Program-made: the position numbers and the translations under genes
Shown: one piece after another, positions 8,583 to 9,980 of the stretch
How positions within the stretch are numbered: position 1 is the first letter of the stretch
How the letters are laid out: each line of letters starts with the position of its first letter
Notes under the pieces: generated by a model
Database searches by the model: none
What the model was told of the DNA's origin: nothing
What the model saw: only the letters and a program-made list of their open reading frames with translations
Assembly: GCA_965662335.1 (NCBI GenBank)
Contig: CBFIGQ010000045.1
Coordinates: 1,156-65,155, forward strand
DNA length: 64,000 bases
Direction of reading: 5' to 3'
Source: Minisyncoccia bacterium
GTDB taxonomy: Bacteria; Patescibacteriota; Minisyncoccia; Phycocordibacterales; UBA9973

Positions 8583-9962
8583 TTATGTATTCTTTATTCT
8601 CAATTCAGCTAATTTAAAATAGTCTTTATCTAGTTCGGTTCCCAAATATTTTCTATTTAATTTTTTTGCGACAACAGCTGTTGTTCCAGACCCCAAAAAT
8701 GGATCAAACACTATTCCATTCTTCTTAGATGTTGCTAGGATAATTCTTTCCAAAAGCCATTCTGGTTTTTGTGTTGGGTGTATCCTTTTTCTGCCAGCTG
8801 TTTTACCTTTTGCCCAAATAGAGCGCATTTGTTTGCCTCCATTAATTTTTTTCATATCTTCATAATTAAAGATATTGCCTTTGTCTTTTCTTGCCCATAA
8901 GAAATTTTCATGATCTGCAACAAATCTTGTACAAGATAAATTCGGTGTGGCATCAGTTTTATGCCAAAGTATTTCGTTTAATATCTCAAATCCAATTTTT
9001 TCTAGTAAATAACCGGTCAAATGTATGTTGTGATATGTGCCGGCAACCCAAATTGAGCCCGTTTTTTTTAATATTCTAAAAGATTCTCTAAGCCAATTTT
9101 CTGTGAATTTCTCAAAATCATCTTTTTCCATTTTGTCCCAATATCCTTTGTCTGTATTAAGATCTTTACCACCTGTTTTTGAAAATTTCATTTTAAAACT
9201 TTTCTTACTTAAATTATATGGAGGGTCAGCAAAAATTAAATCTATAGAATTGTCTTTCAGTCCTCGCATAAATTCTAAACAATCCATATTGTAAATTTTA
9301 TTTAATTCAAAATCTTGTTTTTCAAAAGGAGCTTCTTCTCTTGAATTTTTTGGCAAAACTAAACTAGATTGTTCAAGATTGCGAACAATTTTAACTACAA
9401 CACCCCTGACTTCTACTTCATTTCTATAAATCGGGAAAAGTGTAGGATTTGCTGGCTGTAATCTTATTCTATTTTTCTCTCGATAAATTTTCTTTAAGGT
9501 TGCAAGGTTATCATCAATAATTGCTACGATGGTTTGCCCGTCATCAGCAAATTCTTGTTTGCGAATTATTACTGTGTCGCCGTTAAAAATCCCTTCGTCA
9601 ATCATGCTGTCTCCAGCAACTTTTAGAGCATAGTGCTTTTCTGTGTTTTCAATTTCGTGACTTAGTACTGAAACACTCTCATTGCCAATTTCTAGCGCTT
9701 CTATTGGCTGTCCTGCCGCTATAACTCCAACAATAGGTATTTCAATGAGTTTCTCTGTTTTATTTAACTCAATACCCCTTGGTTTGTTTTTAGACTTATT
9801 TAAATAACCCTTTTTCTTTAACGCATCAATGTGTTGGTGTACTGTTGATTCAGATGATAGTTTGAAATGTTTTTTAATTTCTTTCAAGGAGGGAGCAAAT
9901 TCATTTTTTAACTCATATTTTGATATGAAATCTAAAATTTGTTTTTGGCGTTTCGTTATCAT
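8583..9962 (-). CDS. LexA repressor (wHTH + S24 autopeptidase) fused to a beta-class DNA amino-methyltransferase
   Basis: N-terminal ~215 aa is LexA: winged HTH, cleavage-site Ala-Gly in VIAAGQP, Ser in AGDSM, Lys in ATLKKI. C-terminal ~245 aa has DPPYN...HPTQKP...DPFLGSGTT. Single uninterrupted ORF. Track start GTG 10013; ATG at 9962 (MITKRQKQ) preferred. Confidence 0.8.
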   Translation of the reverse strand: MITKRQKQILDFISKYELKNEFAPSLKEIKKHFKLSSESTVHQHIDALKKKGYLNKSKNKPRGIELNKTEKLIEIPIVGVIAAGQPIEALEIGNESVSVLSHEIENTEKHYALKVAGDSMIDEGIFNGDTVIIRKQEFADDGQTIVAIIDDNLATLKKIYREKNRIRLQPANPTLFPIYRNEVEVRGVVVKIVRNLEQSSLVLPKNSREEAPFEKQDFELNKIYNMDCLEFMRGLKDNSIDLIFADPPYNLSKKSFKMKFSKTGGKDLNTDKGYWDKMEKDDFEKFTENWLRESFRILKKTGSIWVAGTYHNIHLTGYLLEKIGFEILNEILWHKTDATPNLSCTRFVADHENFLWARKDKGNIFNYEDMKKINGGKQMRSIWAKGKTAGRKRIHPTQKPEWLLERIILATSKKNGIVFDPFLGSGTTAVVAKKLNRKYLGTELDKDYFKLAELRIKNT

Positions 9963-9963
9963 G

Positions 9964-9980
9964 TATGATATTATATCATA
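9964..9980. promoter_or_regulatory. perfect 8-1-8 palindrome TATGATAT-T-ATATCATA, candidate operator for the LexA-MTase fusion
   Basis: Read directly. Lies 2 bp upstream of and abutting the ATG of the fusion gene, and inside the 76-bp divergent intergenic region shared with ORF 10039. Confidence 0.45.

What the first reader, a model, noticed from the sequence alone, without database searches (positions are those of the whole stretch)
8583..9980. Complete LexA repressor fused in-frame to a DNA amino-methyltransferase
Seen: one uninterrupted minus-strand ORF whose first ~215 aa carry every functional element of LexA. These are the winged-helix DNA-binding domain, the Ala-Gly scissile bond (VIAAGQP), the catalytic Ser (AGDSM) and the Lys (ATLKKI). 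The next ~245 aa are a beta-class MTase (DPPYN ... HPTQKP ... DPFLGSGTT). Established: LexA/S24 repressors self-cleave at Ala-Gly when stimulated by RecA*, separating the DNA-binding domain from the dimerisation domain. Known self-regulating MTases (the SsoII/EcoRII/MspI type) carry only a short HTH, not an autoproteolytic module. Inference: this protein represses its own promoter through the palindrome on its start codon. It would be converted to a free, non-repressing S24-MTase fragment by DNA-damage signalling, coupling methylation capacity or R-M balance to the SOS response. I know of no described precedent for this architecture.
Basis: partly seen in the sequence, partly recalled or inferred. 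Interest (0 to 1): 0.85.

Follow-up and report, generated by a model that had tools for sequence, protein, structure and literature searches.

The report
LexA repressor fused to DNA methyltransferase
A mobile restriction-modification cassette of an uncultivated (CPR/Patescibacteria-type) bacterium makes its protective DNA methylase as one protein with a complete copy of the DNA-damage sensor LexA; this design turns out to be widespread in these bacteria, and it would let DNA damage raise methylation.

Summary
Window 8583-9962 (-) is one intact 459-aa ORF. It holds a full LexA (wHTH plus S24 autoprotease with Ala83-Gly84, Ser119 and Lys157), a disordered linker, and a CcrM-like beta-class DNA methyltransferase. 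It is not an assembly artefact: an independent assembly carries the identical protein, and more than 100 clusters (42-95% identity) share the architecture.

It is M1 of a conserved Type II R-M cassette (LexA-M1, M2, convergent nuclease-fold R, C protein). The cassette sits on an AT-rich island beside a serine recombinase.

The start-codon palindrome is not conserved. The conserved element is an 11-bp-period direct repeat (TTTCGGT-N4-TTTCGGT, 9986-10004) abutting an extended -10 box. Its half-site covaries perfectly with the LexA recognition helix (64/64).

The finding is also broader than stated. The nearest LexA relatives in metagenomes are mostly fused to DNA methyltransferases of at least four Pfam families, usually with a convergent restriction-enzyme gene.

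Best model (inferred): the methylase represses its own operon, and RecA-stimulated self-cleavage derepresses it. Self-cleavage, DNA binding and the direction of the effect are untested. I found no published description. Interest is high.

The parts
8583..9962 (-). LexA-M1 fusion gene (459 aa plus stop), read from the ATG at 9962
   Evidence: ORF list; homologues start at this Met; three Pfam domains; identical protein in an independent assembly
9774..9959 (-). LexA winged-helix DNA-binding domain (residues 2-63). The recognition helix STVHQHI starts at residue 39.
   Evidence: PF01726, 2e-16; AF2 helices 4-20, 26-33 and 38-50; helix/operator covariation
9393..9737 (-). S24 autoprotease/dimerisation domain (residues 76-190)
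   Evidence: PF00717, 3e-26; matches T. maritima LexA 3k2z at 4e-33
9711..9716 (-). Codons of the scissile bond Ala83-Gly84
   Evidence: A 104/105 and G 104/105 in the family; 79/80 and 80/80 across all LexA-type loci
9606..9608 (-). Catalytic Ser119 codon
   Evidence: Invariant in 80/80 and in alignment A1
9492..9494 (-). Catalytic Lys157 codon
   Evidence: Invariant in 80/80 and in alignment A1
9306..9374 (-). Variable, disordered linker (residues 197-219)
   Evidence: No conservation in the alignment; pLDDT below 50 for residues 197-209
8604..9245 (-). Beta-class N6/N4 DNA methyltransferase domain (residues 240-453). DPPY is at 9216-9227 and FxGSGTT at 8679-8705.
   Evidence: PF01555, 9e-56; CcrM 6pbd at 9e-57; motifs invariant
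9986..10004 (-). Putative LexA operator: direct repeat TTTTCGGT-tttG-TTTCGGT with an 11-bp period. It overlaps the -35/spacer region of the promoter.
   Evidence: The only strong PWM site in the 64-kb window, score 25.2. A period-11 repeat scores at least 7/8 in 62/78 related promoters, against at most 11/78 for other periods. 60 sites lie at own promoters and 1 elsewhere in 601 kb. Covaries with the recognition helix.
9970..9978 (-). Extended -10 promoter element TGaTATAAT. The start codon lies 7 nt downstream, so the mRNA is probably leaderless.
   Evidence: Read from the sequence. TGnTATAAT followed 6-8 nt later by the start codon is kept in L167, L170 and L171; L172 and L087 have TACAAT without the TG, 6 nt before a GTG start. 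Not called by the consensus scanner because the -35 is poor.
9964..9980 (.). It gives -10-like boxes on both strands and is not the conserved operator.
   Evidence: Absent in L170, L171 and L172; a 13-nt version is present in L167. A plus-strand promoter-like site with TG lies at 9945-9974.
10006..10014 (+). Perfect DnaA-box 9-mer TTATCCACA abutting the operator
   Evidence: perfect box in 43/78 related promoters against 0.005 per 150 nt of background. A box cluster in the dnaA-dnaN spacer of L133 confirms the motif's identity.
7830..8576 (-). M2, a second beta-class MTase (248 aa). It starts 6 nt after the M1 stop codon, so it is in the same operon.
   Evidence: PF01555, 2e-40; conserved directly after LexA-M1 in every cassette locus examined
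6533..7828 (+). R, the candidate restriction endonuclease (431 aa). It is convergent with M2, with the two stop codons 1 nt apart.
6165..6386 (+). C-protein-like small HTH gene (73 aa) just upstream of R on the same strand
   Evidence: ORF and sequence. HTH_3 genes occupy the same position in L085 and L167. Not itself scanned against Pfam.
4177..5763 (-). Large serine recombinase flanking the cassette
   Evidence: Resolvase + Recombinase + Zn_ribbon_recom; the same neighbour is present in L085 and L167
6108..10803 (.). AT-rich island (GC 27-35%, against 42-50% in the flanks). It carries C, R, M2, LexA-M1 and an unrelated 254-aa ORF.
   Evidence: Composition profile; bounded by 176-nt, 99% inverted repeats at 5932-6107 and 11280-11455

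Best explanation
The gene encodes a genuine, selectively maintained fusion of a complete LexA repressor with a CcrM-like beta-class DNA methyltransferase. It is the first methylase (M1) of a mobile Type II restriction-modification cassette. The cassette consists of an M1-M2 operon, a convergent nuclease-fold R gene with an optional C protein, and an adjacent serine recombinase.

Proposed mechanism:
1. A dimer of the fusion binds, through its LexA winged helix, the 11-bp-period direct repeat at 9986-10004. That repeat occupies the -35/spacer region of an extended -10 promoter, so the methylase represses its own (probably leaderless) M1-M2 transcript.
2. When RecA filaments form on single-stranded DNA (after DNA damage, recombinational repair, or cuts by the system's own nuclease at unmethylated sites), the S24 domain cleaves Ala83-Gly84.
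3. The 83-residue DNA-binding domain is lost and the operon is derepressed. The remaining S24-MTase fragment can still methylate.
4. The net effect is more methylation capacity when unmodified DNA and breaks appear. This would be a Type II counterpart of restriction alleviation, or a feedback against self-restriction. Read-through from the derepressed M operon into the tail-to-tail R gene may also lower R expression.

Shown here: the domain architecture, conservation of the catalytic and cleavage residues, the cassette and its mobility, and the operator (by comparative evidence and covariation).
Inferred: DNA binding, self-cleavage, RecA dependence, and the direction of the effect on methylation.
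For: Domains: Pfam and NCBIfam hits. PDB matches to CcrM (9e-57) and to LexA (4e-33). The AF2 model shows three folded modules and a disordered linker.

Reality of the fusion: an independent assembly and more than 100 homologue clusters.

Selection on cleavage chemistry: Ala-Gly, Ser and Lys are invariant or nearly so, down to 42% identity and across all fusion types.

Operator:
- Period-11 repeat in 62/78 promoters.
- It is the only strong site in the window.
- 60 of 61 strong sites in 601 kb lie at own promoters.
- Recognition-helix residue 43 is Q/E with half-site TTCGG in 34/34 cases, and F/Y/H with TTC[T/G]A in 30/30.
- PMC7739468 cites the Patescibacteria LexA study among reports that LexA has evolved recognition of direct-repeat motifs.

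Cassette: synteny is conserved while the flanks differ. R has a PD-(D/E)xK-like fold. Composition marks an island, and a recombinase is adjacent.

Generality: LexA is fused only to DNA MTases, of four Pfam families. Convergent neighbours include MvaI/BcnI, BsaWI and EcoRV nucleases.

Functional analogy: fused repressor-MTases, and damage-induced restriction alleviation of Type I systems, are established (PMC12707154; PMC11109961 abstract).
Against: - No experiment or expression data exist. DNA binding, self-cleavage and RecA dependence are all inferred.
- recA is not in the window or in the fetched flanks, so a RecA partner in this genome is assumed.
- In E. coli, by my recollection, both LexA cleavage fragments are degraded by ClpXP/Lon. 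If the S24-MTase fragment were unstable, cleavage could lower methylation rather than raise it.
- A variant cassette lacks the S24 domain altogether (P0096/L168), so autoregulation alone can suffice.
- The recognition sequence is unknown, and GANTC is not depleted in the window (O/E 0.90).
Confidence: 0.55

Rival explanations
1. Plain autoregulated methylase of the SsoII/Ecl18kI/EcoRII type. The LexA module serves only as a DNA-binding and dimerising repressor domain that times methylase expression when the cassette enters a new host. Self-cleavage plays no physiological role and there is no SOS input.
For: Fused repressor-MTases are an established control mode (PMC12707154). A natural variant of this same cassette keeps only the LexA-type winged helix and has lost S24 (P0096/L168). 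Its promoter still has a period-11 repeat.
Against: The scissile Ala-Gly and the Ser/Lys dyad are invariant in 80/80 LexA-type loci and in 104/105 family members, across 42-95% identity and many independent fusion types. A mere dimerisation domain would not keep its catalytic and substrate residues. S24-containing forms vastly outnumber the DBD-only form.
Confidence: 0.17
2. Damage-triggered loss of protection. Cleavage exposes degrons and the S24-MTase fragment is degraded, so sustained RecA activation (for example during phage infection) lowers methylation. The nuclease then kills the cell, an abortive-infection or addiction-like outcome.
For: By my recollection of E. coli work, LexA fragments become protease substrates after cleavage; this was not tested here. 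The N-terminal fragment would end in ...VIAA, resembling the E. coli VAA signal. R-M systems are known to kill on loss of methylation (PMC11324026 abstract).
Against: Cleavage simultaneously derepresses the operon, which also encodes the unfused M2. No degron is demonstrated in the MTase fragment. A protease system in these reduced genomes was not examined.
Confidence: 0.1
3. The fusion is the cell's main (or only) LexA. It governs the whole SOS regulon, and the methylase is a passenger, or a means of tying methylation to LexA levels.
For: The LexA part passes the lexA equivalog threshold. The closest LexA relatives in metagenomes and in 1.84 billion representatives are mostly MTase fusions. 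Operator types are shared with stand-alone LexA genes (L118 and L131).
Against: The gene lies on an AT-rich, recombinase-linked island whose composition differs from the host. It therefore arrived with the cassette. Two different LexA-MTase systems with different operators sit side by side in L122. Stand-alone LexA genes of similar identity exist in the same environments. No second strong operator occurs in the 64-kb window.
Confidence: 0.13
4. One reading: the 17-nt palindrome over the start codon is the operator.
For: The palindrome is perfect (8+1+8) and sits on the promoter. L167 keeps a 13-nt palindrome with one compensatory pair.
Against: It is not conserved in L170, L171 or L172, or in more distant loci. 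It coincides with the -10 box on both strands. About 0.25 such palindromes are expected by chance in a 5-kb, 30% GC island (my own estimate). Patescibacterial LexA recognises direct repeats, and the direct repeat covaries with the helix.
Confidence: 0.04
5. Artefact: two genes joined by a frameshift or a chimeric assembly.
For: None beyond the a priori possibility. Raw reads were not inspected.
Against: The identical ORF occurs in an independent assembly. Hundreds of full-length homologues come from many studies. The one apparent 'split' homologue (P0094) proved to be a gene-calling artefact over an intact fused ORF.
Confidence: 0.01

Closest known systems
Dual-function methyltransferase-repressors of Type II R-M systems (M.SsoII, M.Ecl18kI, M.EcoRII, M.MspI)
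   Same: An N-terminal DNA-binding domain is fused through a flexible linker to the MTase. It binds at the MTase's own promoter and autoregulates (PMC12707154).
   Different: Those carry a short HTH on C5-MTases. Here the module is a complete LexA with an S24 autoprotease and a scissile bond, and the operator is a direct repeat. The module is attached to beta-, alpha- and gamma-class N6/N4 MTases as well as to C5 MTases.
LexA, the SOS repressor (TIGR00498; structures 1JHH, 3JSO, 3K2Z)
   Same: Full-length match above the equivalog threshold. It has the wHTH, Ala-Gly, Ser119 and a catalytic Lys (157 here) at almost the E. coli numbering, and an operator on its own promoter.
   Different: It carries a 240-residue C-terminal DNA methyltransferase. 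It is encoded on a mobile R-M island rather than as a chromosomal housekeeping gene. A regulon beyond its own operon is not evident.
Patescibacterial LexA with a direct-repeat binding motif (Sanchez-Osuna, Barbe and Erill 2017, known here only through citing papers)
   Same: Same clade of LexA domains, at 44-70% identity to stand-alone and fused relatives. Same type of non-palindromic operator.
   Different: That paper could not be read, so whether it noted MTase fusions is unknown. No text I could search mentions them.
CcrM / M.HinfI family of beta-class N6-adenine MTases (6PBD)
   Same: It is the best structural-sequence match, 9e-57 over residues 222-457. The motif order is IV (DPPY) before I (FxGxG).
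   Different: It scores 244 bits against the 830-bit CcrM equivalog cut-off and ends where CcrM's C-terminal domain would begin. It is paired with a paralogous M2 and a nuclease, so it is not an orphan cell-cycle MTase. Its specificity is unknown.
C-protein-controlled R-M systems (PvuII, AhdI, Esp1396I, Csp231I)
   Same: A dedicated transcription factor sets the order of M and R expression. A C-like HTH gene precedes R here too.
   Different: The C gene is optional in this cassette family: it is absent in L082, L168 and L172. The LexA fusion (or, in L168, its DNA-binding domain alone) is the constant regulator.
Damage-induced restriction alleviation of Type I systems (ClpXP degradation of EcoKI HsdR)
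   Same: The proposed logic is the same: protect unmodified chromosomal DNA arising during damage repair (PMC12707154; PMC11109961).
   Different: The mechanism would be transcriptional derepression of the methylase through a built-in autoprotease, not proteolysis of the nuclease. It is untested here.

Membership tests
LexA (S24 family SOS repressor) | N-terminal winged-helix LexA DNA-binding domain | tested here: met
   PF01726 at residues 2-63, 2e-16; AF2 three-helix wHTH
LexA (S24 family SOS repressor) | C-terminal S24 domain with a Ser/Lys catalytic dyad | tested here: met
   PF00717, 3e-26; Ser119 and Lys157 invariant in 80/80
LexA (S24 family SOS repressor) | Ala-Gly scissile bond between the two domains | tested here: met
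   A83-G84; 104/105 and 79-80/80
LexA (S24 family SOS repressor) | Whole-protein score above the curated equivalog threshold | tested here: met
   TIGR00498: 175.4 bits against 110.95, over model positions 4-202 of 203
LexA (S24 family SOS repressor) | Binds an operator on its own promoter (autoregulation) | tested here: inconclusive
   Strong comparative evidence only: a conserved direct repeat at the promoter that covaries with the recognition helix. There is no binding assay.
LexA (S24 family SOS repressor) | RecA*-stimulated or alkaline self-cleavage | not testable with these tools
   Needs purified protein. recA was not found in the available DNA.
LexA (S24 family SOS repressor) | Controls a DNA-repair regulon | tested here: inconclusive
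   There is no other strong operator in the 64-kb window or in the 601 kb of fetched loci (mostly +/-6 kb of flank). Whole genomes were not available.
Beta-class N6/N4 DNA methyltransferase (PF01555) | Catalytic motif IV (D/S)PP(Y/F) preceding AdoMet motif I FxGxG | tested here: met
   DPPY at 246-249 and FLGSGTT at 422-428, both invariant; PF01555, 9e-56
CcrM (NF050803 equivalog) | Whole-protein score above cut-off, including the C-terminal domain | tested here: not met
   243.7 bits against 830, and the match stops at model position 249 of 350. It is CcrM-like, not a CcrM orthologue.
Type II restriction-modification system | MTase gene(s) adjacent to a restriction endonuclease gene, inherited as a unit | tested here: met
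   LexA-M1, M2 and the convergent 430-aa gene are conserved together in different flanking contexts
Type II restriction-modification system | The partner protein is a DNA endonuclease | tested here: inconclusive
Type II restriction-modification system | Defined recognition sequence methylated by M and cut by R | not testable with these tools
   GANTC, the CcrM/HinfI site, is not depleted (O/E 0.90). Methylome data are needed.
SsoII-type MTase-repressors | Short N-terminal HTH on a C5-MTase, repressing M and activating R from a divergent promoter | tested here: not met
   The domain is a full LexA on a beta-class MTase, and R is convergent rather than divergent. It works like this family but is not a member.

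The most novel reading that the evidence does not exclude
In CPR/Patescibacteria, restriction-modification systems of every methylase class have repeatedly captured a complete LexA as a portable, self-contained sensor-regulator. DNA damage, including the system's own off-target cutting, would then be fed back through autoproteolysis into methylase expression. A DnaA box beside the operator would add a replication-status input. This would be a previously unrecognised general layer of R-M control and the first Type II equivalent of restriction alleviation. In the strongest form, in some lineages these mobile fusions are the only LexA and so carry the SOS switch itself.
Probability: 0.4. Interest if true: 0.9.

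Novelty: new variant of a known kind. Interest (0 to 1): 0.75.

Why it matters
R-M systems are the main known antiviral defence of CPR bacteria. By my recollection these bacteria largely lack CRISPR. How Type II systems avoid killing their own host during DNA repair is an open issue, since damage-induced restriction alleviation is known only for Type I enzymes.

A methylase that carries its own DNA-damage-cleavable repressor offers a simple, testable answer. It links two textbook systems, the SOS response and R-M, in one polypeptide.

The fusion recurs with C5, D12, N6_N4 and Eco57I/TaqI-type methylases. Operator and recognition helix covary tightly. Together these suggest a modular regulatory part that moves between cassettes and hosts. 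It also provides a natural set of orthogonal repressor/operator pairs.

The protein is small and should be expressible, so self-cleavage, operator binding and methylation specificity can be tested directly.

Tried and rejected
- A genome-contig scan with the full-length alignment was swamped by CcrM homologues from Alphaproteobacteria. It gave only one fused locus, L001. The single genome scan was thereby spent, so I could not test whether genomes with the fusion also have a separate lexA or recA.
- GANTC and other palindromes show no informative depletion in the window, so specificity could not be inferred.
- The idea that the palindrome is a C-box for the neighbouring C protein was dropped. 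The C proteins of the window and L167 are not orthologous, and no matching half-sites lie upstream of the C genes.
- The consensus promoter/terminator scan did not call the M1 promoter because it has a poor -35. The promoter assignment therefore rests on the conserved TGnTATAAT and its spacing.
- R gave no hit in Pfam, NCBIfam, PADLOC or PDB sequence searches. Only fold comparison gave a lead.
- The apparently unfused 253-aa M1 (P0094) is a gene-calling artefact.
- IMG/VR contigs carry mostly stand-alone LexA, so there is no evidence that the fusions are phage-borne. The phage and plasmid reference collections contain no fused homologue.
- Ten literature searches found no description. The key 2017 Patescibacteria SOS paper is not held.
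- An Rfam search of the GC-rich stretch next to the island found nothing credible.
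Full report
**1. The observation**

The minus strand carries one open frame, 8583..10013, when read from a GTG.
- More than 100 homologues begin M[IL]TKRQKQ, which corresponds to the ATG at 9962. 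The protein is therefore 459 aa, and the 17 upstream codons are promoter DNA.
- Pfam finds LexA_DNA_bind (residues 2-63), Peptidase_S24 (76-190) and N6_N4_Mtase (240-453).
- NCBIfam's lexA equivalog is passed, 175 bits against 111, over essentially the whole model.
- Against solved structures, the C-terminal half matches Caulobacter CcrM (6pbd, 9e-57). The N-terminal half matches Thermotoga LexA (3k2z, 4e-33).
- An AlphaFold model (pLDDT 80) shows a winged helix, an S24 beta-domain, a disordered stretch at residues 197-209, and a Rossmann-type MTase.

**2. Not an artefact**

- The identical protein, with the same neighbours, lies on an independently assembled contig.
- A word-indexed search of 5.8 billion proteins returns more than 100 clusters with the same three domains, about 100% coverage and 42-95% identity.
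- Among the 105 aligned sequences (the window protein and 104 homologues of 450-495 aa), the scissile Ala-Gly is kept in 104. The G-x-S-M serine, the T-L-K-K lysine, DPPY and FxGSGTT are conserved, while the linker is not.
- One seemingly unfused homologue (P0094, 253 aa) is a gene-calling error over an intact fused ORF.
- Raw reads were not available.

**3. Genomic setting**

The cassette:
- M1's stop codon is followed after 6 nt by a second beta-class MTase, M2 (7830-8576).
- M2 is convergent with a 431-aa gene, R (6533-7828). Their stop codons are 1 nt apart.
- R is preceded by a 73-aa HTH gene in the position of a C (controller) protein.
- The trio LexA-M1 / M2 / R recurs in all examined loci of this family, although the flanking genes differ.

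The R gene:
- R has 191 homologues, all unnamed and without a Pfam family.
- D336, E350 and E352 are invariant.

The island:
- The block is 27-35% GC, against 42-50% around it.
- It is bounded by 99%-identical 176-nt inverted repeats.
- It lies beside a large serine recombinase. The same recombinase neighbour is present in L085 and L167.
- The fusion is therefore the first methylase of a horizontally mobile Type II R-M cassette, and the LexA part shares the island's composition.

**4. The operator**

Seventy-eight related promoters were compared.
- A direct repeat with an 11-bp period is found in 62 of them at 7/8 or better. For periods 8-10 and 12-14, at most 11 promoters reach that score.
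- In the window the repeat is TTTTCGGT-tttG-TTTCGGT (9986-10004). It lies immediately upstream of TGaTATAAT (9970-9978), and the start codon follows 7 nt later.
- A matrix built from these sites finds one strong site in the 64-kb window, this one.
- In 601 kb of related loci it finds 60 sites at own promoters and one elsewhere. The matrix was trained on those promoters, so this shows specificity rather than discovery.
- The strongest evidence is covariation. Residue 43 of the recognition helix (H-x-H) is Q/E with half-site TTCGG in 34/34 cases, and F/Y/H with TTC[T/G]A in 30/30. Relatedness inflates these counts, but the classes recur in separate clades.
- A published source cites the Patescibacteria LexA study among reports that LexA has evolved recognition of direct-repeat motifs (PMC7739468).

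It is missing from orthologous promoters at about 74-86% identity (L170, L171, L172) and is kept only as a 13-nt version in L167. It is not the conserved operator. It may simply reflect back-to-back -10 elements, since a plus-strand promoter-like site lies there.

**5. The finding is a special case of something larger**

- I scanned metagenome contigs with LexA-only peptide patterns and kept the 80 best matches to the LexA part. About 64 of them are single ORFs in which LexA is followed by a DNA methyltransferase. About 9 are stand-alone or broken, and 7 are cut by contig ends.
- The partners belong to N6_N4_Mtase (several subtypes), MethyltransfD12, C5 DNA_methylase and N6_Mtase/Eco57I (with TaqI_C).
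- An exhaustive HMMER search of 1.84 billion cluster representatives with the LexA part alone shows the same pattern. About three quarters of the 50 best hits are 300-890 aa with LexA at residues 1-200. Canonical proteins of about 200 aa dominate only below about 48% identity.
- Nine of the ten long representatives tested carry an MTase domain and nothing else. The tenth, a shorter 378-aa entry, showed only the LexA domains.
- Ala83, Gly84, Ser119 and Lys157 are kept in 79-80 of 80 loci of all types.
- In a neighbour-joining tree of the LexA parts, MTase types are interleaved with each other and with stand-alone LexA. The operator type follows the LexA clade, not the MTase. The module has therefore been recombined with methylases repeatedly.
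- In almost all of the 25 loci inspected, a convergent ORF abuts or overlaps the end of the methylase gene or operon. Three of ten such ORFs tested are recognised nucleases: MvaI/BcnI, BsaWI and EcoRV.
- L122 carries two different LexA-MTase systems side by side, with different operators.
- The phage and plasmid reference collections contain no fused homologue. IMG/VR contigs hold mostly stand-alone LexA.

**6. Mechanism**

Shown:
- a complete, conserved LexA is joined by a flexible linker to an intact methylase;
- a conserved, helix-matched operator sits on its own promoter;
- M2 is co-transcribed;
- the cassette is mobile.

Inferred: the fusion represses the M1-M2 operon, and RecA-stimulated self-cleavage at Ala83-Gly84 removes the DNA-binding domain and derepresses it. 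The S24-MTase fragment stays active, so methylation capacity rises when damage, repair synthesis or self-restriction produce breaks and unmodified DNA.

This resembles the established fused repressor-MTases, and the damage-induced restriction alleviation of Type I enzymes (PMC12707154; PMC11109961). It would work through a different device. Because M and R are tail-to-tail with no room for a terminator, derepression might also interfere with R transcription. That last point is speculation.

The main uncertainties are these:
- whether cleavage occurs at all;
- whether the large fragment is stable (the opposite, suicidal outcome is a rival);
- whether the host has RecA (none was found in the available DNA);
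- whether the fusion also touches a wider regulon.

A DBD-only variant of the same cassette (P0096/L168) shows that autoregulation can exist without S24. The near-universal retention of the catalytic and substrate residues argues that cleavage matters where S24 is kept.

**7. Comparison with known systems, and novelty**

- It works like the SsoII/Ecl18kI/EcoRII repressor-MTases but is not one of them. The DNA-binding fold differs, an autoprotease has been added, the MTase classes differ, and R is convergent.
- Its N-terminal 200 residues are a bona fide LexA by every sequence criterion.
- Its MTase is CcrM-like but fails the CcrM equivalog threshold and lacks the C-terminal domain.
- I found no publication describing LexA-methyltransferase fusions. 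A comprehensive 2025 R-M review never mentions LexA.
- The 2017 Patescibacteria SOS paper could not be read and might mention them.
- I rate the finding as a new variant of known kinds, with high interest because of its breadth and direct testability.

Noticed in passing
window 10006-10014; also upstream regions of L087-L166, L001, L082, L085: A perfect DnaA-box 9-mer (TTATCCACA / TGTGGATAA) lies next to the LexA operator. It occurs in either orientation in 43 of 78 lexA or LexA-MTase promoters (57 of 78 allowing one mismatch), against 0.005 per 150 nt of background. The window has only one other perfect box, at 15330 inside ftsA. In L133 the dnaA-dnaN spacer has a cluster of 7 boxes, which confirms the motif. 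This suggests that DnaA co-regulates lexA-type promoters in CPR.
   Followed up: partly
window 4235-4353 / 5819-5937 and 5932-6107 / 11280-11455: There are nested inverted repeats. A 289-nt block (5819-6107) is the reverse complement of two separated pieces, which flank the serine recombinase gene and the R-M island respectively. The junction is at 5932-5937. The outer pair is 99% identical and includes the first 22 codons of the gene at 11391-11705. This looks like the trace of site-specific integration or inversion, and it was not resolved.
   Followed up: partly
window 10850-11260: A GC-rich, ORF-free stretch lies between the AT-rich island and the right-hand repeat. It has a roughly 25-bp long-range stem (about 10886-10912 pairing with 11160-11185). 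The folding z-score is about -4.8 on either strand, and there is no Rfam match. It could be a structured RNA or the ends of a small mobile element.
   Followed up: partly
window 6165-6386 (+): A 73-aa XRE-type HTH ORF lies directly upstream of R, in the position of a controller (C) protein. Its upstream region has a direct repeat, GGAATATAaCA / GGAATATAtCA. The C genes of L167 and L085 are not orthologous to it, and some cassettes lack C altogether.
   Followed up: partly
window 7828-7830; many related loci: The stop codons of R and M2 are 1 nt apart on opposite strands. In most LexA-MTase loci, the methylase gene and the convergent ORF overlap by 4-24 nt or are separated by fewer than 20 nt. 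That leaves no room for terminators and suggests convergent-transcription interference.
   Followed up: no
related loci, 5-20 nt upstream of the start codon (e.g. L143, L137, L122, L113, L118): Many lexA-type genes that have a 40-50 nt leader carry a conserved GTCAA(T) just before the ATG, mirroring the TTGAC next to the operator. The window's own gene lacks it and appears leaderless. Its function is unknown.
   Followed up: no
L122:2618-8043: Two different LexA-MTase R-M systems (D12-type and gamma-type) sit side by side. Each has a convergent ORF. The operator half-sites differ (TTTCGG against TATCGG), and the LexA parts are 49% identical.
   Followed up: partly
L168:5001-6092 (protein P0096): This is a variant of the same cassette in which M1 carries only the LexA-type winged helix (36% identity) and no S24 domain. 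Its promoter repeat is TTTAGGT-N4-TTTAGGT, and its recognition helix has S in place of H.
   Followed up: partly
L001:3181-4241: The R homologue matches in two pieces on different frames, with residues 123-188 missing. It is possibly a disrupted nuclease gene beside intact methylases.
   Followed up: no
window 11958-15484 compared with L085:18369-21383: The cassette lies next to the same host genes (thioredoxin-reductase-like, ftsZ, ftsA) in the window and in L085, in both cases with a serine recombinase. This suggests a shared insertion region. In L085 the other neighbour is an OLD-family ATPase plus UvrD helicase pair, which resembles Gabija.
   Followed up: no
window 10039-10803 (+): A divergent 254-aa ORF inside the island has no family match. 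It is present in the identical Logan contig but not in other cassette loci. L171 has a DUF3800 gene at the same position. It could share the bidirectional promoter region.
   Followed up: no
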